The position numbers and the translations under genes were made by a program. 64,000 bases of DNA from Gammaproteobacteria bacterium (GTDB lineage: Bacteria; Pseudomonadota; Gammaproteobacteria; UBA4575), in NCBI GenBank assembly GCA_965203475.1, contig OZ241890.1:606926-670925 (forward strand), read 5' to 3'. The first letter of the stretch is position 1; the number at the start of each line of letters is the position of its first letter. The notes beneath the pieces are model-generated. The model had not been told where the DNA came from, did no database searches, and was given only the letters and a program-made list of their open reading frames with translations. This document shows, piece by piece, positions 3,693-14,733 of this stretch.

Positions 3693-3800
3693 TATAAATA
3701 TGCGCCTGTAGCCCAGCTGGACGATGGACAGGAGTCCGAGTGTCGCGAGAGACAGGGAAAGTCGAAAGCGACTAGAGTTACAGCGCATAGCGCTGTTAGT
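3693..3800 (+). other. tRNA-like 5' fragment (19/20 nt identical to the 5' end of the downstream tRNA-Arg) followed by three short hairpins; degenerate tRNA or structured RNA
   Basis: GCGCCTGTAGCCCAGCTGGA matches the start of the tRNA at 3843. The 3' part does not fold as a cloverleaf. Hairpins present are TGTC-GCGAGA-GACA, GTCG-AAAG-CGAC and ACAGCGC-ATA-GCGCTGT. Confidence 0.3.
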
Positions 3801-3842: not shown

Positions 3843-3919
3843 GCGCCTGTAGCTCAGCTGGATAGAGTACCTGGCTTCGAACCAGGTGGTCGGGGGTTCG
3901 AATCCCTCCGGGCGCGCCA
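3843..3919 (+). tRNA. tRNA-Arg (anticodon TCG)
   Basis: Full cloverleaf: acceptor GCGCCTG/CGGGCGC, D-arm GCTCAGCTGGATAGAGT, anticodon arm CCTGG-CTTCGAA-CCAGG, T-arm GGGGGTTCGAATCCCTCC, discriminator G and CCA. Close to E. coli tRNA-Arg(ACG) apart from the anticodon. Confidence 0.85.
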
Positions 3920-3960: not shown

Positions 3961-5634
3961 ATGCTAAAAGGTTTTACGTGTTTATACTTGAGAGAGTTAA
4001 CGATTCTGGCCATTTGTTTCATTATAGTACCGCCAGTTTCAGCAGCTAATTCTCCGATACAAGAGCAAATTCGTCAAAAAATTGAAAAATTACGTAACGA
4101 TAACCAGCTATCAATATCAGGAGCAGAAATTGCGTCTAAAAAAGTGCTGCCTGAATTATATGAACGCAGATCTTATACAGCTGCGTGGGATAATCCTGTA
4201 AGAATTGACGATCTAATCCAAATGGTTGGAAGAGCAGAAGAAGAAGGCTTACTACCACATGACTATCACTACAGTGAACTATCATCTTTACGAGATACAA
4301 ATAGTAATGATGCGAGTGATATTGCAGATTTAGACATTCTTTTAACTGATAGTTTGATCCGTTATGGCTACCATCAAAATTTTGGGAAAGTAATTCCATC
4401 CGAATTGGATTCAAATTGGAACTTCACACGCAATATTGGAGATAAAGACCCGGTTAGTTTAGTGCAAGGTGCCATCGATTCCGACGGCATTCGGCAATAT
4501 ATTTCAGATGTACTTGAGAGAGGTCCCTATTATCGGCGATTAAAAAAATTGTTGGCCGAATATCGTATGCGTGCTGCTAGTGAAGAGGCAGATATACCTA
4601 CGATTCCTGCAGGTCCAGCTTTAAAAAAAGGAATGAACGATTCGAGAGTTTCAATAGTAAGGAAAAGACTTATAAGTACTGGTGATTTGAGCGATAGTGA
4701 TGTATTGGATCCAAATTTATTTGATGAAACGTTAGAGGGGGCGGTTAAACAATTTCAGAAAAATGCAAATATTGCTATTGATGGAATTGTGGGTCCAGGA
4801 ACATTGGCGTTACTGAATCCTACGTTGCAAAGTCGTATCGACCAGCTGCGTGTGAATATGGAACGTATTCGATGGATATTTCGCGATATACGTGACAACA
4901 AAGATTTTGTAATCGTGAATATTGCCGATTTTAAAACAGCATTTGTACGTGATCATAAAGTCGTCTGGGAAACAAAATCACAAGTTGGGCGTACGTATTA
5001 CAAAACTCCTGTTTTTCGTGCAGATATGGAATATGCACAATTTAATCCAACGTGGACGATTCCGCCAGGTATTCTTCGACGAGATATCATTCCAAAAATT
5101 AAAGTAGATCCTGGCAGTTTGGCTGCAAACGACATGCGGTTAATAGATAATAAAACAGGCAAAGTGGTAGATCCTGCGACCTTGGACTGGTCAAAATTAG
5201 AAGGAAAAGGATTTCCGTATCAAGTTGTGCAAGCTCCTGGCCCTAAAAATCCATTAGGCTTAGTAAAATTTATTTTTCCAAATCCTCATTTTGTTTATTT
5301 GCATGATACAACTGCAAAAGATAAATTTTCTGAAGATGTAAGGGCATTTAGTGCAGGTTGTATTCGCATTCAGAAACCGTTTGAGTTTGCAGAATTATTG
5401 CTAAATGATCCAGAGTGGAATCAGACAACAATACAGAAAACCTTAGATTCTAAAAAAATTAAAACAGTATATTTGAAAGAGAAAATTCCGGTTTTGGTAC
5501 TTTATTGGACTGTCGTCGCGACGAATGAGCACGAGGCTAGATTTTTGCCAGATATATATGAAAGAGATCTGGCTATACTGAAGGAATTAAATGAACCATT
5601 TAAGCCTTTTAAGTTGAAGGGTGTAACTCATTGA
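3961..5634 (+). CDS. L,D-transpeptidase (YcbB/LdtD family) with peptidoglycan-binding domain
   Basis: N-terminal signal sequence, PG-binding-like region, YkuD catalytic region with YLHDT...AFSAGCIRI (His/Cys motif). Confidence 0.8.
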   Translation: MLKGFTCLYLRELTILAICFIIVPPVSAANSPIQEQIRQKIEKLRNDNQLSISGAEIASKKVLPELYERRSYTAAWDNPVRIDDLIQMVGRAEEEGLLPHDYHYSELSSLRDTNSNDASDIADLDILLTDSLIRYGYHQNFGKVIPSELDSNWNFTRNIGDKDPVSLVQGAIDSDGIRQYISDVLERGPYYRRLKKLLAEYRMRAASEEADIPTIPAGPALKKGMNDSRVSIVRKRLISTGDLSDSDVLDPNLFDETLEGAVKQFQKNANIAIDGIVGPGTLALLNPTLQSRIDQLRVNMERIRWIFRDIRDNKDFVIVNIADFKTAFVRDHKVVWETKSQVGRTYYKTPVFRADMEYAQFNPTWTIPPGILRRDIIPKIKVDPGSLAANDMRLIDNKTGKVVDPATLDWSKLEGKGFPYQVVQAPGPKNPLGLVKFIFPNPHFVYLHDTTAKDKFSEDVRAFSAGCIRIQKPFEFAELLLNDPEWNQTTIQKTLDSKKIKTVYLKEKIPVLVLYWTVVATNEHEARFLPDIYERDLAILKELNEPFKPFKLKGVTH

Positions 5635-5639
5635 CAGGT

Positions 5640-6500
5640 TGAGTATAGCGCTGATTAAAAGTTATTTATTGATTGTACTTCTTCAACCCAAGAACAGCCT
5701 GTATAAAATTGGGTAACTAAAACTATTTGTTGAGATATTATTTCTAATGGTAAAGCTATTGCTCTTGCAGAAATGGAAGGAATTCGTGGATTGTTACGGC
5801 ATCCTTTATAGGCCTCTAATACACTAGAGACCTATATTGGTGCATCTATTTTTATAATACTAAAGTTTGGAGCACAATTCATTTTTCATCAACAGCAGTA
5901 CGCAAAAAAGATATTTCTCAAGTAAAAGTAGAGTTAGTAGAAAATGATGCCAAGCTGATGAGTGAATCATTAATCATTAGTTTAGGATAAGAATTCGTTC
6001 TCCTTTTTTTAAATTATATGTTGCGTGAAGACACAAATTCCATGTTGCATGGTTTATGTATTTTCATTGCTGTTTGCAATCGATAAAATAATCTAAATGA
6101 ATTTTCTAGTGATGGTTACTCATTATTTCCAGATAGCTCTTTAATTGATGAAAAAGATTGGTGTGAATGTTGTTTTAAGCATGATTTAGCGTATTGGTGT
6201 GGAGATATATATGAAAGTGTAAAAATGCTGATTTAATAGTAAAGTAATGTATATTCAATAAAACTCAAAACGAACAACTAGCACAAATTATGTACAACAG
6301 TGTAAGTTTTGATGGTAGCCCTTATTTTTATAATTGATATCGTTGGGAATATGGATGGTCTTACCATGGAAAGTATAAGACTTTAAGTGAGAAGGAATTA
6401 AAACAAGCAACGACTTAAAGAAAATTTTTTAACAGTAAAGATTCAAATTATTGCAACTCTGAGATAACGCAGTAATTTTTGTCCTTGATTTAAAATTCCT
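5640..6500. pseudogene. Degraded gene remnants (frame-shifted ORF fragments, including a Cys-rich fragment DWCECCFKHDLAYWCG)
   Basis: About 0.9 kb without an intact ORF in an otherwise gene-dense window. Several 20-50 codon open stretches lack start codons. Confidence 0.35.
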
Positions 6501-6531
6501 TGAAAAACAATATCTTTTGAAACTGTTGAAA

Positions 6532-6572
6532 GTTCTCTATAAGTTCTCTATTATGAGAACTTATGGAGAACA
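6532..6572 (+). promoter_or_regulatory. Candidate LexA operator: two tandem GTTCTC half-sites followed by two GAGAAC half-sites (nested palindromes), overlapping the lexA RBS
   Basis: AGTTCTCTAT-AAGTTCTCTAT-TATGAGAAC-TTATGGAGAAC ends immediately before the lexA start at 6575. Confidence 0.45.
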
Positions 6573-6574
6573 TT

Positions 6575-7165
6575 ATGCTAACCGAGCGGGAACAAGCTAC
6601 GCTCCAGTTCATTACTGACTATCTTGCTAAGTACCGTAAAGCGCCTTTGCTTATCGAGATTGCACAAGGTTTGGGTATTCACTCCAAAGGCGTAGTGCAT
6701 CGTTATTTATCTGTGCTAGAAGAGCAGGGCTATATCCGCCGGCAACAAAGGCACCGTGGCATCGAACTAGTGGGCCATCCTAATCATGACGAGGTGCCGT
6801 TGTTGGGGCGCATTGCGGCCGGCAAACCTATCGAAGCGATTGAAGATCGTGAATTAATAAATTTTACACATTTATTGGGAGGTCCTAATCGATTTGTGTT
6901 ACAGGTAAAAGGACATTCCATGATTGATGAAGGTATTCGTAGTGGTGATCTTGTCGTTATTGAACAAGCCAGTCATGCGCGGAGCAATCAAATTGTTGTG
7001 GCACTTATTGATGATCATGAAGCTACACTTAAGCGCATTAAATTTCCAGATCGAAATACAATTCGCTTAATTCCTGCGAATAAAAATATGCAGCCTAAAG
7101 AATACCCAACTGAGCGTGTAACCATACAAGGTGTATTGGTTGGGCAGGTAAGAATGTACACCTGA
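6575..7165 (+). CDS. lexA: LexA repressor (S24 peptidase with N-terminal wHTH)
   Basis: Colinear with E. coli LexA: Ala-Gly cleavage site in IAAGKP, Ser in GHSM and Lys in LKRIK. The ATG at 6575 is preferred over 6563 because of the GGAG RBS. Confidence 0.85.
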   Translation: MLTEREQATLQFITDYLAKYRKAPLLIEIAQGLGIHSKGVVHRYLSVLEEQGYIRRQQRHRGIELVGHPNHDEVPLLGRIAAGKPIEAIEDRELINFTHLLGGPNRFVLQVKGHSMIDEGIRSGDLVVIEQASHARSNQIVVALIDDHEATLKRIKFPDRNTIRLIPANKNMQPKEYPTERVTIQGVLVGQVRMYT

Positions 7166-7179
7166 CTTTATGTCGCTAA

Positions 7180-8403
7180 GTGATGAAACGCTGGGATCGT
7201 GCGATTGTATTTATCGATATGGATGCTTTTTTTGCAAGCATTGAGCAGCATGATCAGCCCGAATTACGTGGACAACCTATTGGTATTACAAATGGATTAA
7301 CGGGCACATGTTTTATTACTTGTTCTTATGAAGCTAGAGCGTATGGCATTAAAACGGCAACAAGAATTAAAAAAGCAAAAGAATTGTGTTCTGATGTAAT
7401 TCAAGTTCCAGCTCGACCTTATCGCTATGCAGAAGTTTCCACGAATATTATGTCTGCACTGCAAAACATTACGCCGGATATTGAAGTTTTTTCTGTAGAT
7501 GAAGCTTTTTTAGACATTACTCATTGCCAGGGCATTTATGGAGATCCTGCAAAAATGGGCACTCTTATTAAAAGTACAGTGTATGAGGCAGGAGGAGTAT
7601 CCTGCAGTATTGGCATTAGTGGGGACAAAACCACTGCCAAAGTTGCAGCCAAACAAGATAAACCTGATGGATGTGTAGTGGTTCCACCTTGGGAAGCTAG
7701 AAATTTTCTTAAAAATAAACCGGTGACTGATTTATGTGGTGTTGCAAAGGGTATTGGTCGATATCTAGGGGACCGTGGTGTTGAATTATGTGGCGACATG
7801 CAGCATTTACCCATCGGTGAACTGGGACATCGTTTTGGAAACCCAGGGCGGCGTATTTGGTATATGGCACAGGGTTTGGATCCTGAACCTTTACAACCGA
7901 ATGTTGCAGCACCTAAGTCAATTGGTCATGGCAAAATTATGCCGCCCAACACCAAGCAACATTCTGTATTGAAAATATATTTGCATCATATGGCAGAAAA
8001 AGTAGGTGCGCGATTGCGCAAACATCATTTTGAAGCACAGCACTTTTTTATTGGTTTTCGAACCGAACAGGGCTGGCTAGCCAAAAAAATGAAAACAGTG
8101 GATCCAACAGATGATAGTCAGCAGATTAAGGCATTGGCCAATGATTTGCTCAATCACTACTGGCAGGGGCAGGGATGTTTTCAGGTACAGATTACTGCAC
8201 TTGATCCGAAAGACCAGGGTAATCAACTGTCATTATTTCGACAGAAAGACATTAAACGTGAGCAAATTAACCAGACCATGGATCGTATTAACGAGCGCTA
8301 TGGAGAATTTACTCTGGCCCCTGCTGTGTTATTGAATCGCTCGAACATGCCCAATGTGATTGCACCTGCATGGAAACCAGCAGGTCATAGAAAGACAGTA
8401 TGA
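7180..8403 (+). CDS. Y-family DNA polymerase (DinB/Pol IV-like, catalytic residues intact)
   Basis: IDMDAFFASIE and SVDEAFLDIT catalytic motifs and a KVAAKQDKPDG motif. Lies 15 nt downstream of lexA. Confidence 0.8.
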   Translation: MMKRWDRAIVFIDMDAFFASIEQHDQPELRGQPIGITNGLTGTCFITCSYEARAYGIKTATRIKKAKELCSDVIQVPARPYRYAEVSTNIMSALQNITPDIEVFSVDEAFLDITHCQGIYGDPAKMGTLIKSTVYEAGGVSCSIGISGDKTTAKVAAKQDKPDGCVVVPPWEARNFLKNKPVTDLCGVAKGIGRYLGDRGVELCGDMQHLPIGELGHRFGNPGRRIWYMAQGLDPEPLQPNVAAPKSIGHGKIMPPNTKQHSVLKIYLHHMAEKVGARLRKHHFEAQHFFIGFRTEQGWLAKKMKTVDPTDDSQQIKALANDLLNHYWQGQGCFQVQITALDPKDQGNQLSLFRQKDIKREQINQTMDRINERYGEFTLAPAVLLNRSNMPNVIAPAWKPAGHRKTV

Positions 8404-8448
8404 GCACATGATCGAAATTCAAAGTAAGCCAGGACATCGCAAGACGGT

Positions 8449-8895
8449 ATGAGTAGTGGTGTGTTGTATACAATCGAGGAACAAGATAGAAGAATCTATT
8501 TTCACAATCCACTTGCCACACTTCCAGTCATTACCAAGCAAGACAATATCATCATGATGCCTTGGGGCAGGCGAAAAAAACAAAAAGGTATGCTGCCATT
8601 AGGAGGCTGGGCCAGATTAGAGGGGATATATAAAGGCCAGTGGGATCGGTGGTTGCCAAAATCTGTAAAAATTCCAGTCAAATCATTTATGGAAAAATCA
8701 CATGATGGTTCGAATCACTGGTTTGATTTAGTAAAAGGGCAATGTTTACAAGGATTGGTTGCACGTAACAAATATGAGCAACGAGTATATGTTGTTACCA
8801 TAGAACCAGAGCAAGAGTATGCGTGGTATTACCGATGGCCTCGTATTATAAATAAAGGTTATAAAAATAATTTAGAAGTTTTCGATGTAAATTAG
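8449..8895 (+). CDS. Hypothetical protein (148 aa), third gene of the lexA-polymerase cassette
   Basis: ORF 45 nt after the polymerase on the same strand. No recognisable domain. Confidence 0.45.
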   Translation: MSSGVLYTIEEQDRRIYFHNPLATLPVITKQDNIIMMPWGRRKKQKGMLPLGGWARLEGIYKGQWDRWLPKSVKIPVKSFMEKSHDGSNHWFDLVKGQCLQGLVARNKYEQRVYVVTIEPEQEYAWYYRWPRIINKGYKNNLEVFDVN

Positions 8896-9098
8896 AAATT
8901 CAAAAAAATAATCAGATCAAAAGTCATTACCATTAATGCACTATAAAACCCACGTTTGTCTTATTTATCTTTAAAAAACAACCATCTATACATACAAATA
9001 ATGACTCGGTAACTTACATAAATACAATGAGTTATATCGCGGATAGGATGAAGCGTAAGTAATGGAAAATACCATTGTGATTGTGAAAAGGAGTTTTC

Positions 9099-9284
9099 AT
9101 GATATTTGCAAAAAGTATCCAAAGGCTTTATCGGCCATCCAGATTGCGAAAGCACCGCGCAACTAATTCCGCGCATTCAAAATCAAACCAAAATACTAAA
9201 TTAAACGAGCAGCATTTGACTCGTGATCAAGTTATAGAAATATATGATTGGATTGCAAAATTGAATGCCCAGCAAAGTGCATAG
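9099..9284 (+). CDS. Small basic hypothetical protein (61 aa)
   Basis: Strong AAAGGAG RBS 7 nt upstream of the ATG. Confidence 0.25.
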   Translation: MIFAKSIQRLYRPSRLRKHRATNSAHSKSNQNTKLNEQHLTRDQVIEIYDWIAKLNAQQSA

Positions 9285-9337
9285 GATGAATCTGGGGAAC
9301 GTAAAAATATTAACTAACGCATATAAGGAAAGTTAAA

Positions 9338-9436
9338 ATGGAAGTTACACATACTATTTTAATATTTGATGTAATTGCTTTGGTTGGAATTATGGTTGCA
9401 AGTGCTGTGTACTTGTATCGTCATAAGTACCACTAA
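9338..9436 (+). CDS. 32-aa hydrophobic single-TM micro-protein candidate
   Basis: AAGGAAAG RBS. Translation is MEVTHTILIFDVIALVGIMVASAVYLYRHKYH. A terminator follows at 9494. Confidence 0.3.
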   Translation: MEVTHTILIFDVIALVGIMVASAVYLYRHKYH

Positions 9437-9493
9437 AATATTCAAAGCAAAAAAACGGGTCCAACTCCAAGCGTATCTATATACGCTTAAGAT

Positions 9494-9522
9494 AAAAAAG
9501 CCCCTATTCAGGGGCTTTTTTT
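9494..9522. terminator. Bidirectional rho-independent terminator
   Basis: AAAAAAGCCCCT-ATTC-AGGGGCTTTTTTT, placed between convergent transcription units. Confidence 0.6.
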
Positions 9523-9538
9523 CATTAAAACTAACTGA

Positions 9539-10117
9539 TTAAACAGAAGAAAATACGGTGCTATGTAATGCACTGTATAAAAATTCATGAAAAATTTCAG
9601 TTTCATGAGTACCGATGGTTTGACGAATAGCGTTAATAAGCTGATCTGTATAGTTCATACCATCTTCAGCAATTTTTTGGCCTTTTAAAGACAGTGATAA
9701 ATTAACTACACGTCTATCTTTTTTGCTGTGGTCACGGATTACTAAGCCTTTAGCCTCTAATAACTCAAGTTGGCGGCTAATTGTGCTTGAATCAGTATAG
9801 GTAGTTTCAGATATTTTGGCAGGTGTTGCCGCAAGATTTAAATATATAGATTTTAATATTCGCCATTGTTGATAGTTGACTTTATGTTTTTTTAAATAAG
9901 TAGTGATTTTTTTTCGGGAAATACTATTGATGGCTTCTATATAGGTAATGATGTCAGCATCAAATGGATTTACGCTTGGCTTATGTTTATTTAACGTTGC
10001 TATGATTTCTTCTTGAGGGGTAATCATGGTTTGTCGCATAAACAGGTTAAATTCATTTAGTTGGTACAGCAGGTTATAGGTACTTAATAAATAAGGAGAC
10101 CGATTAAAAGAGGCCAA
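9539..10117 (-). CDS. MarR-family transcriptional regulator
   Basis: Winged-helix region QQWRILKSI...TDSSTISRQLELLEAKGLVIRDHSKKDRRVVNLSLSLKG. The true start may be internal. Confidence 0.7.
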   Translation of the reverse strand: MASFNRSPYLLSTYNLLYQLNEFNLFMRQTMITPQEEIIATLNKHKPSVNPFDADIITYIEAINSISRKKITTYLKKHKVNYQQWRILKSIYLNLAATPAKISETTYTDSSTISRQLELLEAKGLVIRDHSKKDRRVVNLSLSLKGQKIAEDGMNYTDQLINAIRQTIGTHETEIFHEFLYSALHSTVFSSV

Positions 10118-10320: not shown

Positions 10321-10563
10321 TTGAGGCATGTCATGAGCTATTTTGGTGAAAGTACACTCGAGCACAAGGTGCTCTTATATATGGAAGGCATTAAAAACAG
10401 TAATAATCTAAAGGATTACGAAGTCATCCGTATGATGAATAAAGTAGTGGAATATTATCGAGATAATCTTGTGTACGAATTCAACGAAGATGAAGCAAAT
10501 ACTATTTTGAAAGAAGCCAGTGATACTAATATCAAGGATACGAAAGATTCATCTACTTCATAA
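10321..10563 (+). CDS. Hypothetical protein (80 aa)
   Basis: ORF only. Confidence 0.35.
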   Translation: MRHVMSYFGESTLEHKVLLYMEGIKNSNNLKDYEVIRMMNKVVEYYRDNLVYEFNEDEANTILKEASDTNIKDTKDSSTS

Positions 10564-12789: not shown

Positions 12790-14733
12790 TTACGCAGATG
12801 ACAATAAATTAGATATTATTTTCTGTAGTGATTGTGCGTTTACATTTTTAGCCTCGACTGGAATCGAAGCAAGTAGAGTAATTTTTCGCCACAATCTAGT
12901 CGGGATTCCGGTCATTGGTTTGCCTTTATAGTTACTAAAATAACTCCCCCATAGTCCTTGTAATGCCATCGGGACAACTTTAATCGGTGTTTCTGACAGT
13001 ATGCGATTAATTCCAGGTTTGAAGGTATCTACATTTCCATTTGTAGTGAGCTTACCTTCGGGGAAAATTCCAACTAAATTTCCGCTATTTAATTCACGCG
13101 CAATATTAATGTAGGCTTTTTCTAGTAACTCAGGATTTTCTTTTTTTGGCGCAATAGGAATAGCATTAGCTGTTTTAAATATAAATCGTAAAAAAGGTAT
13201 ATTAAATATTTTGTGGTACATAACAAATCGTATCGGACGACTTACGCAGCCACCAATGATCAGGGCGTCCATCAAACTTACGTGATTAGATACAATAATT
13301 GCTGGACCTTCCTGTGGAATTAAGTCTAAATTAATTTTTTTCACGCGGTAAACAATATGGACTAAAATCCAAATAACGAAACGCATAAAAAATTCTGGAA
13401 TTAATGTATAAATGTAGACTGCTACAACTGCATTTAAAATGGCAGCAACTAAAAATAGTTGCGGAATAGTTAAACCAGAATTTAAAAGGAAGATCGCGTA
13501 TAAACCAGAACTAACAATAAAAATCGCATTTAATATATTGTTACCGGCTATAACGCGTGATCGTCTTTGTGCTTTAGATCGCGTTTGAATTAAGGCATAT
13601 AGCGGGACTATATAGATTCCCCCTGATACACCAATTAAAAATATGTCCAGAATTAAGCGCCAATTCTGTTTATTAGTAATGAATTCTTGAAATCCTACAA
13701 GGTGAGTTGTATTTTGCATGTGAGCGGCAAAAAATACATCGATTCCAAAAATTGTTAAGCCGATTGAGCCTATAGGCACGAGCCCTAACTCAATTGTGTG
13801 GTTGGAAAGTCTTTCACAAAGAAGAGAGCCAATTCCTATACCTATACAAAATAGCGCTAGAAACAATGTAACCACTTGTTCGTTTGCCCCAATAGAGAGT
13901 CTGGTGAAATTTGGAAGCTGTGTTATGTATGTAGCACCTAAAAACCAAAACCATGAAACGCCTAACACAGAATGAAATACAATTCTATTTTCACGAAGCG
14001 AACTTAAATTTCGAAATGTTTCAAGGAAAGGGTTCCAATTAATTTTTAAGTTTGGGTCTGTAGCTTCTGCTTTTGGAATTTTAAGACTGCTTAAATAACC
14101 TAGGCATGCTAGAATTATAATCGTGTAGGAAACAAGCATTTTAAATTCTGTAGCTATTCCTATTAGAATTCCACCAAGCATCGTCCCAATCAAAATGGCG
14201 GCAAATGTTCCAGTTTCTACAATAGCGTTACCCCCAACAAGCTCATGTTTTTCCAGATGTTGAGGGATGATTGAATATTTTATGGGCCCAAATAGTGATG
14301 ATTGTGTGCCCATCAAAAATAAGGCCAGTAACAGCAGTGGTACGTTTTTAGAATAAAACCCTATTGCTGCAAGAAACATTATTAAAATTTCTGCAATTTT
14401 TATTTTTCGAATGAGAGAGGATTTTTCAAATCGATCAGCGATTTGCCCTGCGATTGCAGAGAAAAAGAAAAAAGGTAATATGAACAGAATTGCAGCTAGA
14501 TTTATTAAGAGGTTTGAGCTATCACTGCCTGCGTAACTTGTTTGAAATGCGATTAATATAAAAAGAGCATTTTTAAATACATTATCATTGAATGCACCAA
14601 AAAACTGCGTCATAAAAAATGGACCGAAGCGCGATTCTTTAAGAAGCTGAAACTGATTTGTCGTTTTGGAGTTTATTTTGCTTTGCAAAGTGATTAAAGG
14701 CAGCAGGCTTGTCCAAATTTTTTCAATCGCCAA
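12790..14733 (-). CDS. Lysophospholipid transporter (LplT-like MFS) fused to a PlsC-type acyltransferase domain
   Basis: N-terminal 12-TM MFS with MTQFFGAFNDN. C-terminal NHVSLMDA (HX4D) and FPEG acyltransferase motifs. The true start is probably internal, near 14611. Confidence 0.7.
   Translation of the reverse strand: MAIEKIWTSLLPLITLQSKINSKTTNQFQLLKESRFGPFFMTQFFGAFNDNVFKNALFILIAFQTSYAGSDSSNLLINLAAILFILPFFFFSAIAGQIADRFEKSSLIRKIKIAEILIMFLAAIGFYSKNVPLLLLALFLMGTQSSLFGPIKYSIIPQHLEKHELVGGNAIVETGTFAAILIGTMLGGILIGIATEFKMLVSYTIIILACLGYLSSLKIPKAEATDPNLKINWNPFLETFRNLSSLRENRIVFHSVLGVSWFWFLGATYITQLPNFTRLSIGANEQVVTLFLALFCIGIGIGSLLCERLSNHTIELGLVPIGSIGLTIFGIDVFFAAHMQNTTHLVGFQEFITNKQNWRLILDIFLIGVSGGIYIVPLYALIQTRSKAQRRSRVIAGNNILNAIFIVSSGLYAIFLLNSGLTIPQLFLVAAILNAVVAVYIYTLIPEFFMRFVIWILVHIVYRVKKINLDLIPQEGPAIIVSNHVSLMDALIIGGCVSRPIRFVMYHKIFNIPFLRFIFKTANAIPIAPKKENPELLEKAYINIARELNSGNLVGIFPEGKLTTNGNVDTFKPGINRILSETPIKVVPMALQGLWGSYFSNYKGKPMTGIPTRLWRKITLLASIPVEAKNVNAQSLQKIISNLLSSA

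What the first reader, a model, noticed from the sequence alone, without database searches (positions are those of the whole stretch)
6520..8900. Compact lexA / DinB-type Y-polymerase / orphan-ORF cassette with elevated GC, embedded in AT-rich accessory DNA
Three co-directional genes with 15-45 nt spacers: a full-length LexA, a catalytically intact Y-family polymerase and a 148-aa unknown. By eye they are clearly GC-richer (about 45-50%) than the flanks (about 35%). The cassette is bordered upstream by about 0.9 kb of gene debris and downstream by AT-rich DNA with micro-ORFs, which is the signature of horizontally acquired DNA. It sits about 2.7 kb downstream of a tRNA-Arg. The gene content otherwise looks Legionellales-like, and my recollection is that the best-studied Legionella is reported to lack LexA and a classical SOS response. 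A self-contained repressor plus mutagenic polymerase module would be notable in that lineage.
Basis: partly seen in the sequence, partly recalled or inferred. Interest (0 to 1): 0.7.

Follow-up and report, generated by a model that had tools for sequence, protein, structure and literature searches.

The report
SOS operon: LexA, translesion polymerase, mini-SRAP
The three genes are a real, self-repressed DNA-damage operon in which the "orphan" gene is a conserved, shrunken relative of the abasic-site-crosslinking SRAP proteins that always sits next to this polymerase; the operon is inherited in its lineage, not recently imported, and nothing shows the host is Legionella-like.

Summary
The three genes exist as described: lexA 6563-7165, Y-family polymerase 7180-8403, ORF3 8449-8895. 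The compositional argument is overstated. The cassette is 41.8% GC, not 45-50%. GC3 and codon usage are ordinary. The downstream neighbours are syntenic in related genomes, so this is not a recent island.

The operon carries a conserved operator, GTTCTC-N5-GTTCTC, that fills the -35/-10 spacer. Where lexA is not adjacent, the polymerase gene is preceded by this repeat or by a canonical CTGT-N8-ACAG box.

The polymerase has intact catalytic residues, a QLSLF clamp motif and a RecA-NT-like motif. The module therefore resembles the "UmuC-SRAP-like-RecA" mutasome predicted in 2026 for Planctomycetes (hhalign 98% for the small subunit).

In the window's clade the SRAP nucleophile Cys2 is Ser and the conserved His is Tyr, yet dN/dS is below 0.1. 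A Legionellales host is not supported.

The parts
6526..6554 (+). Sigma-70-type promoter of the operon: -35 TTGAAA (6526-6531), 17-nt spacer, -10 TATTAT (6549-6554).
   Evidence: Best consensus match in 6300-9700, 10 of 12. In 31 of 43 lexA-led promoters a TTGAnn hexamer directly abuts the operator.
6532..6548 (+). Operator unit 1: direct repeat GTTCTC-tataa-GTTCTC (equivalent to GTTC-N7-GTTC). It fills the promoter spacer exactly.
   Evidence: Exact match. A match with at most 2 mismatches lies within 150 nt upstream in 41 of 42 lexA-led operons, against 1.85% of random 161-nt segments. Outside cassette or lexA promoters there is only one site with at most 1 mismatch in 731 kb of loci, and that site lies upstream of another lexA.
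6555..6571 (-). Operator unit 2: the same repeat in inverted orientation (GAGAAC-ttatg-GAGAAC on the + strand). It overlaps the lexA start codon (6563).
   Evidence: Exact match on the - strand. 19 of 43 lexA-led promoters have a direct repeat followed by an inverted repeat within 70 nt. L053 and L057 carry symmetric changes in both inner hexamers.
6563..7165 (+). lexA: self-cleaving SOS repressor of 200 aa. Recognition-helix region SKGVVHRYLSVL (aa 41-52); Ala86-Gly87 cleavage site; Ser119 and Lys157.
   Evidence: TIGR00498 143.7 bits, above cut-off. Pfam LexA_DNA_bind and Peptidase_S24. Alignment with E. coli LexA at 36% identity with the catalytic residues invariant.
7180..8403 (+). Y-family DNA polymerase of 407 aa. 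Catalytic D13, D107, E108; steric gate F17; beta-clamp motif QLSLF (aa 349-353, nt 8224-8238); RecA-NT-like motif INQTMDRINERYGEFTL (aa 363-379, nt 8266-8316); clade-specific tail NRSNMPNVIAPAWKPAGHRKTV (aa 386-407).
   Evidence: Pfam IMS and IMS_C, with DUF4113 at E = 0.02 on aa 362-383. Below every DinB and UmuC NCBIfam cut-off. Alignments with DinB, UmuC and a planctomycete UmuC-like polymerase. Motif positions.
8404..8448 (+). 45-nt spacer that is a partial duplication of the polymerase 3' end. Most clade relatives instead have an ATGA stop/start overlap between the two genes.
   Evidence: Junction sequences of L001, L002, L003, L006 and L009 compared with the window and L007.
8449..8895 (+). 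ORF3: minimal SRAP-fold protein of 148 aa. Ser2 stands where the family has Cys2 (codon 8452-8454). GGWAR at aa 52-56, FMEK at aa 80-83, AWYYRWPR at aa 125-132, with Tyr127 where the family has His.

Best explanation
This is a LexA-autorepressed SOS operon encoding a two-subunit translesion polymerase of the Pol V type.

In undamaged cells LexA most likely binds the GTTCTC-N5-GTTCTC repeat, which fills the spacer between -35 and -10, and an inverted copy that overlaps its own start codon. That would shut off lexA, the polymerase gene and ORF3. This step is inferred from conservation, not shown.

After DNA damage, RecA filaments are expected to trigger LexA self-cleavage at Ala86-Gly87 through Ser119 and Lys157, and the operon is then transcribed. 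The residues are shown; the reaction is inferred from the LexA family.

The polymerase is catalytically intact. It carries a QLSLF beta-clamp motif followed by a RecA-N-terminus-like motif, as UmuC does. It would therefore be recruited to stalled forks through the clamp and RecA (inferred).

ORF3 is a stripped-down SRAP domain, the fold with which YedK and HMCES recognise abasic sites in single-stranded DNA. It acts as the polymerase's dedicated small partner, analogous to UmuD' in Pol V. The obligate gene pairing and the ancestral ATGA translational coupling are shown. Physical association is inferred.

Most family members keep the N-terminal Cys2 and the His of the SRAP active site, so they could crosslink to abasic sites. 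The window's clade has Ser2 and Tyr127 under strong purifying selection. Here the subunit most likely works without the thiazolidine crosslink, as a non-covalent DNA or polymerase-binding subunit.

The operon is an inherited chromosomal feature of an uncultured gammaproteobacterial lineage, not a recent import.
For: - Gene identities and intact catalytic or cleavage residues.
- Pairing: the polymerase gene is immediately upstream of the ORF3 homologue in 79 of 80 genome loci from many gammaproteobacterial families, and lexA is immediately upstream of that in 45. No other gene is conserved around the module. Most clade relatives have an ATGA stop/start overlap.
- Regulation: the direct-repeat operator is found in 41 of 42 lexA-led operons against 1.85% of controls. 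Among the 27 operons scored as polymerase-led (one of them, L053, is actually lexA-led), 15 carry the direct repeat and 10 a canonical CTGT-N8-ACAG box; L064 has both. The operator occurs essentially only at these promoters in 731 kb. It lies between -35 and -10.
- In the related genome OZ244982.1, lexA and the polymerase-ORF3 pair lie about 120 kb apart and both carry the operator, which implies action in trans.
- Homology of ORF3 to the SRAP-like subunit of the predicted UmuC-SRAP-like-RecA mutasome: hhalign probability 98.2%, E = 3e-14 (PMC12926913). The polymerase aligns with UmuC and with the planctomycete UmuC-like polymerase through QxSLF and the RecA-NT motif.
- Cys2 is present in 70 of 70 loci outside the clade, and Ser2 in 10 of 10 inside it. 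Within the clade dN is 0.09-0.24 with dS saturated, and dN/dS is below 0.1 for all three genes.
- Vertical inheritance: synteny and codon usage.
Against: - No experiment or complex model was run here. Subunit contact, RecA binding and LexA binding are all inferences.
- No sequence method links ORF3 to SRAP: the Pfam SRAP model hits none of 31 members even at E <= 10, a profile search of PDB sequences finds nothing relevant, and hhalign against YedK is not significant. The equivalence of Cys2, Glu and His therefore rests on fold, position and motif resemblance.
- One related genome has a lexA-polymerase pair with no ORF3 next to it (L084), so the polymerase may not always need a cis-encoded partner.
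- Stand-alone mini-SRAP genes exist on plasmids without any polymerase, so the protein can have a polymerase-independent role.
- Whether this LexA is the cell's only LexA could not be determined from 64 kb.
Confidence: 0.72

Rival explanations
1. One reading: a recently acquired genomic island, integrated near tRNA-Arg, that brings a foreign SOS module into a lineage that otherwise lacks LexA (Legionellales-like).
For: The cassette is 41.8% GC against 30-33% in the immediate flanks. A tRNA-Arg lies 2.6 kb upstream and a 21-nt copy of its 5' end lies at 3701-3721. A pseudogene remnant lies upstream. The module sits in different genomic contexts in different orders. A complete copy exists on a Methylophaga megaplasmid.
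Against: GC3 and codon usage are within the host range. No integrase and no repeat of the tRNA 3' end flank the cassette. A housekeeping L,D-transpeptidase gene lies between the tRNA and the cassette. The same downstream neighbours occur in relatives L003, L006, L007 and L084, and the same upstream pseudogene in L007 and L084. All ten members of the clade share the derived Ser2/Tyr state, so the module predates their divergence. The Legionellales assignment is not supported.
Confidence: 0.08
2. ORF3 is an independent abasic-site sensor or shield of the YedK type. It is merely co-transcribed with the polymerase and is not a subunit of it.
For: It has the SRAP fold. Aravind et al. 2013 described SRAP genes in operons with DinB and LexA without requiring a complex (PMC3765255). 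Stand-alone mini-SRAP genes occur on Pseudomonas and Nitrosomonas plasmids. L084 has a lexA-polymerase pair without ORF3.
Against: Pairing is near-obligate (79 of 80 loci), and most clade relatives show translational coupling. The window's clade has lost Cys2 and His, which are needed for the covalent shield (established SRAP chemistry; 6oe7 and 8d2m are among the structural hits). The protein is nevertheless still under dN/dS below 0.1, which favours a role that does not depend on crosslinking. The homologous planctomycete SRAP-like proteins give confident complex models with their polymerase in PMC12926913.
Confidence: 0.2
3. In this clade ORF3 is an inactivated relic on its way to loss, because its catalytic Cys and His are gone.
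For: Ser2 and Tyr127 replace the conserved Cys2 and His. The translational coupling to the polymerase gene is broken by a 45-nt duplication in the window. One relative lacks ORF3 at the syntenic site.
Against: All ten clade members keep a full-length ORF. 51 columns of alignment A1, which includes the clade members, are invariant. dN is 0.12-0.20 while synonymous sites are saturated, giving dN/dS of about 0.06. The relative that lacks ORF3 at the syntenic site has an intact polymerase-ORF3 pair elsewhere.
Confidence: 0.04

Closest known systems
UmuC-SRAP-like(-RecA) predicted mutasome (Timinskas, Kazlauskas, Timinskas and Venclovas, NAR 2026, PMC12926913)
   Same: A Y-family polymerase with a clamp motif and a RecA-NT motif is encoded next to a 137-156-aa SRAP-like protein that starts Met-Cys. 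The small proteins are homologous to the ORF3 family (hhalign 98.2%, E = 3e-14, 102 columns). The polymerases align end to end (27% identity, E = 1e-38).
   Different: All examples in that paper's data file are Planctomycetes; this family is gammaproteobacterial. The small subunits share only 26% identity. The polymerase here has a distinct conserved C-terminal tail and is as close to DinB (32% over the core) as to UmuC (27%). lexA is part of the operon here. The window's clade lacks Cys2. I could not establish whether that paper's polymerase grouping already includes the gammaproteobacterial family, because the supplements are truncated.
LexA-DinB-SRAP operons (Aravind, Anand and Iyer, Biol Direct 2013, PMC3765255)
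   Same: The same three functional classes sit in one SOS-linked operon.
   Different: That work concerns the 220-260-aa DUF159/SRAP domain. ORF3 is 136-148 aa and is invisible to the Pfam SRAP model. By eye, it lacks the helical insert after the first strand and the C-terminal ~55 residues of YedK.
E. coli Pol V (UmuD'2C-RecA)
   Same: A LexA-repressed operon encodes a Y-family polymerase plus a small accessory protein. The polymerase C-terminus carries QLxLF and then a RecA-NT-like motif that aligns with UmuC QLNLF...MDTLNAKEG.
   Different: The accessory protein has the SRAP fold, not an S24 peptidase like UmuD. The gene order is polymerase then accessory. The S24 protein in the operon is a full LexA with a DNA-binding domain.
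YedK / HMCES (SRAP abasic-site crosslinking proteins)
   Different: ORF3 is about 40% shorter. There is no significant sequence similarity. In the window Cys2 is Ser and the His is Tyr.
Alphaproteobacterial SOS box GTTC-N7-GTTC (Caulobacter; PMC9578287)
   Same: Both are direct repeats of GTTC with 7-nt spacing.
   Different: The hosts here are Gammaproteobacteria, whose known box is CTGT-N8-ACAG. The conserved unit is the hexamer GTTCTC, and it is often followed by an inverted second copy. Whether this is common descent or convergence was not tested.
lexA-imuA-imuB-dnaE2 mutagenesis cassette
   Same: Both are compact LexA-led, self-regulated mutagenic polymerase cassettes, found on chromosomes and (for this module) also on a plasmid.
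   Different: There is no imuA, no dnaE2 and no inactive ImuB. The Y-family protein here is catalytically intact.

Membership tests
LexA repressor | N-terminal LexA winged-helix DNA-binding domain plus C-terminal S24 peptidase domain, scoring above the curated family cut-off | tested here: met
   PF01726 and PF00717. TIGR00498 143.7 bits against a cut-off of 110.95.
LexA repressor | Ala-Gly cleavage site and Ser/Lys catalytic dyad | tested here: met
   A86-G87, S119 and K157 are invariant in the alignment with E. coli LexA.
LexA repressor | Binds an operator in its own promoter, and RecA-stimulated self-cleavage relieves repression | not testable with these tools
   Only comparative support is available: the conserved repeat between -35 and -10.
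Y-family DNA polymerase | IMS catalytic core and little-finger domain with the three catalytic carboxylates | tested here: met
   PF00817 at 5.5e-42 and PF11799 at 5.6e-12. D13, D107 and E108 are invariant.
DinB / Pol IV orthologue | Reaches the curated score of an NCBIfam Pol IV equivalog model | tested here: not met
   Best scores are 254.8 bits against a cut-off of 381 (PRK03103) and 233.2 against 256 (PRK02406). Identity to E. coli DinB is 32%, over the core only.
UmuC / Pol V catalytic subunit | Reaches the UmuC model cut-off and is paired with a UmuD-type S24 protein lacking a DNA-binding domain | tested here: not met
   NF002955 scores 99.3 bits against a cut-off of 431. The adjacent S24 protein is a full LexA.
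UmuC / Pol V catalytic subunit | C-terminal beta-clamp motif followed by a RecA-NT (DUF4113) motif | tested here: inconclusive
   QLSLF is present at aa 349-353. DUF4113 scores only E = 0.02, but the region aligns with UmuC QLNLF...MDTLNAKEG and with the planctomycete UmuC-like polymerase.
SRAP (DUF159, PF02586) superfamily | SRAP fold | tested here: met
SRAP (DUF159, PF02586) superfamily | Match to the Pfam SRAP model, with a domain of about 220-260 aa | tested here: not met
   No hit for ORF3 at E <= 0.1, and none for any of 31 family members at E <= 10. Length is 136-148 aa.
SRAP (DUF159, PF02586) superfamily | N-terminal Cys2 nucleophile | tested here: not met
   The window and all nine clade relatives have Met-Ser-Ser. 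The other 70 loci have Met-Cys (one is read as Val-Cys).
SRAP (DUF159, PF02586) superfamily | Active-site Glu and His | tested here: inconclusive
   E82 in the FMEK motif is invariant, but its equivalence to YedK E105 is by eye only. The His position is Tyr127 in the window, and the remaining 67 of the 70 Cys2 loci keep His (3 have Tyr). The only alignment to YedK H160 is not significant.
UmuC-SRAP-like-RecA module (PMC12926913) | Small SRAP-like protein homologous to the published ones and encoded next to a Y-family polymerase | tested here: met
   hhalign A1 against A2 gives 98.2%, E = 3e-14. Adjacency holds in 79 of 80 loci.
UmuC-SRAP-like-RecA module (PMC12926913) | The polymerase belongs to the same 'UmuC-like' Y-family group | tested here: inconclusive
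   27% identity, E = 1e-38, over the full length. No clustering or tree was made.
UmuC-SRAP-like-RecA module (PMC12926913) | The polymerase, the SRAP-like protein and RecA form a complex | not testable with these tools
   No multimer prediction is available here.
tRNA-associated genomic island | Integrase, flanking direct repeats derived from the tRNA 3' end, and absence from close relatives | tested here: not met
   No integrase ORF. The only tRNA-derived repeat is a 5'-end copy upstream of the tRNA. The cassette and its neighbours are syntenic in relatives.
tRNA-associated genomic island | Atypical base composition and codon usage | tested here: not met
   GC is +2 SD for lexA, +1.5 SD for the polymerase and average for ORF3. 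GC3 is at most +1.8 SD. Codon-usage z scores are -1.43, +0.74 and +0.47.

The most novel reading that the evidence does not exclude
The ~136-aa SRAP-fold family is the UmuD'-like regulatory subunit of a widespread, so far unannotated gammaproteobacterial SOS mutasome. The mutasome is controlled by a LexA that reads an alphaproteobacterial-style direct repeat. The window's lineage is a natural separation-of-function variant: it has given up the Cys2/His thiazolidine chemistry (Ser2/Tyr127) but keeps the subunit under strong selection. If so, the essential job of the SRAP-like subunit in the complex is not covalent capture of abasic sites. Alternatively, an N-terminal serine supports a weaker, reversible oxazolidine or Schiff-base link.
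Probability: 0.3. Interest if true: 0.65.

Novelty: new variant of a known kind. Interest (0 to 1): 0.48.

Why it matters
- SRAP proteins (YedK, HMCES) are known as stand-alone shields that crosslink to abasic sites. Their recruitment as polymerase subunits has been proposed only computationally, in 2026, and only for Planctomycetes.
- This window shows a second, larger branch of that idea. It has 362 species-level genome loci and 561 representative clusters at 50% identity. It is annotated everywhere as 'hypothetical protein' and is invisible to Pfam.
- The branch has a clear LexA link and cultured carriers (Methylophaga plasmids) in which it can be tested.
- The Ser2/Tyr clade offers a natural experiment on whether crosslinking chemistry is needed for the subunit's role.
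- The direct-repeat operator adds a non-canonical LexA motif within Gammaproteobacteria.
- None of this supports the original headline of LexA in a Legionella-like lineage.

Tried and rejected
- A PDB search with YedK to harvest diverse SRAP sequences for a profile printed only YedK duplicates.
- The afdb50 fold library was not available.
- Exact look-ups of the window's ORF3 and citrate synthase found no record, so the source contig and its name could not be retrieved. Cluster look-ups gave no names.
- I looked for natural polymerase-SRAP fusions among the profile hits as evidence of physical association. The six long proteins found are instead membrane plus winged-helix proteins with a C-terminal mini-SRAP domain.
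- I looked for a fourth conserved gene around the module and found none.
- I looked for further operator copies to define a regulon. There are none elsewhere in the window and only one in 731 kb of loci, at another lexA. Canonical CTGT-N8-ACAG boxes in the window are at chance level.
- I looked for phage carriage and found none.
- Reading the supplements of the 2026 paper could not show whether gammaproteobacterial polymerases were grouped with its 'UmuC-like' set.


Full report
**1. The observation**

The window holds three co-directional ORFs. They are 6563-7165 (200 aa), 7180-8403 (407 aa, GTG start, ATG at 7183) and 8449-8895 (148 aa), separated by 14 and 45 nt.

The first ORF is a bona fide LexA. 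It scores 143.7 bits against TIGR00498, cut-off 110.95. It has LexA_DNA_bind and Peptidase_S24 domains. Aligned with E. coli LexA (36% identity), it keeps Ala86-Gly87, Ser119 and Lys157.

The second ORF is a Y-family polymerase with IMS and IMS_C domains. It has intact D13, D107 and E108 and an aromatic steric gate, F17.

tRNA-Arg(TCG) lies at 3843-3919.

**2. Composition**

The compositional claim is overstated. GC is 43.8, 42.2 and 38.0% for the three genes and 41.8% overall. The window is 37.3%, and its 58 long ORFs average 37.8 +/- 3.0%. The sharp visual contrast comes from the non-coding or pseudogene flanks at 30-33%.

GC3 is 0.37, 0.31 and 0.34 against 0.297 +/- 0.043. I also scored each ORF's fit to the pooled synonymous codon usage of the window. 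The polymerase scores z = +0.74 and ORF3 z = +0.47, both better than the average gene. lexA scores z = -1.43, rank 6 of 58. There is no compositional case for foreign origin.

**3. Context**

The window is ordinary chromosome. It encodes MsrPQ, GlpD, an L,D-transpeptidase, FadBA, citrate synthase, MetX, Tsp, sulfate adenylyltransferase and MoaA.

- Between the tRNA and lexA lie the L,D-transpeptidase gene (3961-5634) and a gene remnant at about 6060-6410. The remnant is interrupted by stops, carries a CCxxHDxxYW motif, and is also interrupted in a related genome.
- There is no integrase and no repeat of the tRNA 3' end. The only tRNA-derived repeat is a 21-nt copy of its 5' end at 3701-3721, on the far side of the tRNA.
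- Downstream, the small ORFs 9099-9284 and 9339-9437, the MarR gene (9539-10117), 10321-10563, the Sel1-repeat gene and the acyltransferase 12790-14613 occur in the same order next to the cassette in relatives L003, L006, L007 and L084.

The cassette is therefore ancestral to a clade of related genomes.

**4. The host**

The window's citrate synthase is 100% identical to one on a 2,409,838-bp contig. A block of relatives at 82-89% identity comes from 1-2.9-Mb contigs labelled only 'Gammaproteobacteria' or 'Pseudomonadota bacterium'. The next named hits are Thioalkalivibrio and Ectothiorhodospiraceae at 69-71%. No Legionella appears among the best 120.

This does not place the lineage precisely, and it gives no support to 'Legionellales-like'. 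The literature statement that L. pneumophila lacks an SOS response is correct (PMC3820712), but it is not shown to be relevant here.

**5. ORF3**

ORF3 has 269 homologues in the first search. Many are 55-67% identical over 91-95% of its length and come from diverse Gammaproteobacteria. All are annotated as hypothetical, with no Pfam domain.

The family consensus is about 136 aa. It begins MCGGVYY and ends AVHxRWPRI. An AlphaFold2 model built on the family alignment is confident (pLDDT 85.3, pTM 0.80).

Sequence methods do not see the relationship. So this is a minimal SRAP domain. By eye, it lacks YedK's helical insert after the first strand and its C-terminal ~55 residues. It keeps an N-terminal Met-Cys, an invariant Glu in the FMEK motif and an H-x-R-W-P motif. 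These residue equivalences are inferred, not statistically supported.

**6. Linkage**

I scanned one genome per GTDB species with the family profile and found 362 loci. Among the best 80:

- The polymerase gene lies directly upstream of the ORF3 homologue in 79. The 80th locus is cut by its contig end.
- lexA lies directly upstream of the polymerase in 45.
- No other gene is conserved around the module. The largest neighbour cluster covers 10 loci, on the opposite strand.

In most close relatives the polymerase stop and the ORF3 start overlap as ATGA. In the window this junction has been split by a 45-nt partial duplication of the polymerase 3' end.

A profile search of 1.84 billion representative proteins gives 561 clusters at E <= 1e-3.

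The complete lexA-polymerase-ORF3 operon also sits on a 320-kb plasmid of the cultured Methylophaga thalassica. It is annotated there as LexA, DNA polymerase IV and hypothetical protein. No phage carries the family.

**7. Regulation**

Upstream of lexA the window reads TTGAAA-GTTCTCtataaGTTCTC-TATTAT-GAGAACttatgGAGAAC.

- The promoter hexamers at 6526-6531 and 6549-6554 are the best sigma-70 match in the region.
- The direct repeat at 6532-6548 is exactly the 17-nt spacer between them.
- An inverted copy at 6555-6571 overlaps the lexA start codon.

The repeat, allowing up to 2 mismatches, is present within 150 nt upstream in 41 of 42 lexA-led operons. In random segments of the same loci the rate is 1.85%. 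In 31 of 43 promoters a TTGAnn hexamer abuts it, and 19 of 43 also have the inverted copy. L053 and L057 have both inner hexamers changed symmetrically (GTAGCC and GGCTAC), which argues that the four-hexamer arrangement is read as a unit.

One search scored 27 operons as polymerase-led; one of these, L053, is actually lexA-led and was misclassified because its polymerase match is split. Of the 27, 15 carry the direct repeat within 150 nt upstream and 10 a textbook gammaproteobacterial SOS box such as TACTGTATATAATTACAGTA (L064 has both), and 3, including L053, carry neither.

In 731 kb of fetched loci, the only other operator with at most 1 mismatch lies upstream of another lexA.

In genome OZ244982.1, lexA (with a polymerase paralogue, L084) and the polymerase-ORF3 pair (L001) lie about 120 kb apart. 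Both carry the operator, so this LexA acts in trans.

The motif equals the GTTC-N7-GTTC direct repeat known from Caulobacter and relatives (PMC9578287). The LexA recognition-helix region differs from that of E. coli, and is similar in the six cassette LexAs aligned.

**8. The polymerase**

It fails every curated DinB and UmuC cut-off. It is 32% identical to E. coli DinB over the catalytic core and 27% identical to UmuC over its full length.

Like UmuC, it has a clamp motif (QLSLF, aa 349-353) followed by a RecA-N-terminus-like motif (INQTMDRINERYGEFTL). That motif aligns with UmuC QLNLF...MDTLNAKEG and gives a weak DUF4113 hit. The meaning of this motif is taken from PMC6511836.

A 22-residue tail, NRSxMPxVIAPAWKPxGHRxT, is conserved in the four clade polymerases aligned and absent from DinB, UmuC and the planctomycete polymerase.

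**9. What is already known**

Aravind et al. (2013) described DinB-SRAP(-LexA) operons for the full-length 220-260-aa domain.

Timinskas et al. (2026) list 'UmuC-SRAP-like(-RecA)' among 11 predicted mutasome types. Their modelled examples are all Planctomycetes, with 137-156-aa SRAP-like proteins.

The ORF3 family is homologous to those proteins (hhalign 98.2%, E = 3e-14, 26% identity). The polymerases align end to end at 27% identity. The window therefore holds a gammaproteobacterial, LexA-led relative of that recently predicted module.

**10. The clade-specific twist**

All 70 loci outside the window's clade keep Cys2. All 10 inside it (the window plus L001-L009) have Met-Ser-Ser. They also have Tyr where the remaining 67 of the 70 Cys2 loci have His (3 have Tyr).

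Within the clade, synonymous sites are saturated while dN is 0.09-0.24. This gives dN/dS below 0.1 for all three genes. The Ser2/Tyr protein is therefore functional.

Established SRAP chemistry needs the N-terminal cysteine for the thiazolidine link. This clade therefore most likely uses the subunit non-covalently. That conclusion is an inference.

**11. Verdict**

The finding is real.

- It is not an imported SOS module in a Legionella-like host.
- It is an inherited member of a widespread, unannotated family of polymerase plus mini-SRAP SOS operons.
- The family has a non-canonical LexA operator.
- The window's clade carries a natural catalytic-residue swap in the small subunit.

The kind of system is known or recently predicted. 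This is a new variant of it.

Noticed in passing
window 3701-3721: A 21-nt copy (20 of 21 identical) of the 5' end of tRNA-Arg lies 141 nt upstream of the real tRNA (3843-3919). Neither ARAGORN nor Rfam calls it a tRNA. It may be the scar of an old rearrangement.
   Followed up: partly
window 8404-8448: The 45-nt spacer between the polymerase gene and ORF3 is a partial duplication of the polymerase 3' end (GGTCATAGAAAGACAGTATGA versus GGACATCGCAAGACGGTATGA). L001, L002, L003, L006 and L009 have a 4-nt ATGA stop/start overlap instead. L007 has a similar insertion.
   Followed up: yes
window about 6060-6410: An interrupted gene remnant encodes ...SDGYSLFPDSSLIDEKDWCECCFKHDLAYWCG... and ...YRWEYGWSYHGKYKTLSEKELKQ in two frames. 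The homologous stretch in L084 also contains in-frame stops. L007 has a longer match.
   Followed up: partly
window 9099-9284 and 9339-9437: Two small ORFs of 61 and 32 aa, the second hydrophobic, lie in the AT-rich stretch downstream of ORF3. They are conserved in L003, L006, L007 and L084, so this is not junk DNA.
   Followed up: partly
L001 and L084 (both OZ244982.1): One related 2.67-Mb genome has two polymerase paralogues that are 67% identical to each other. lexA-polymerase without ORF3 sits at the syntenic MarR-adjacent site. Polymerase-ORF3 without lexA sits about 120 kb away. Both carry the same operator.
   Followed up: yes
L086 (Methylophaga thalassica plasmid NZ_CP143310.1, 67641-69920): The complete lexA-polymerase-mini-SRAP operon lies on a 320-kb plasmid of a cultured bacterium. 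Cys2 and His are retained, and the upstream repeat variant is ATTCTC-N5-ATTCTC. M. pinxianii has a similar plasmid hit. These are usable as experimental systems.
   Followed up: partly
L087 (Pseudomonas pXWY) and L088 (Nitrosomonas plasmid): Stand-alone mini-SRAP homologues (44-47% identical) lie on conjugative plasmids next to Xre-antitoxin or RelE/ParE-type genes, with no polymerase. As annotated, they lack Cys2.
   Followed up: partly
P0396, P0416, P0427, P0487, P0490, P0499: These proteins of 508-610 aa carry the mini-SRAP domain at the C-terminus of a hydrophobic (probably membrane-spanning) protein with a possible winged-helix region (both judged by eye). Some have an internal Cys at the domain start and some have none. 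This is a different, undescribed architecture.
   Followed up: no
L053 and L057, upstream of lexA: An operator variant reads GTTCTC-N5-GTAGCC ... GGCTAC-N5-GAGAAC. Both inner hexamers are changed symmetrically, which suggests the four hexamers are read together.
   Followed up: partly
L037 6479-7908: In this MAG a second operator and lexA lie downstream of the polymerase-mini-SRAP pair. They are followed by a distant Y-family-like gene (25% identity), possibly part of an imuB-type cassette.
   Followed up: no
window 9449-9551 (- strand): A weak Rfam hit to the rimP leader scores 32.5 bits against a gathering threshold of 47 (E = 0.022). It overlaps a GC-rich hairpin followed by a T-run between convergent genes, so it is most likely a terminator and not a leader.
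   Followed up: no
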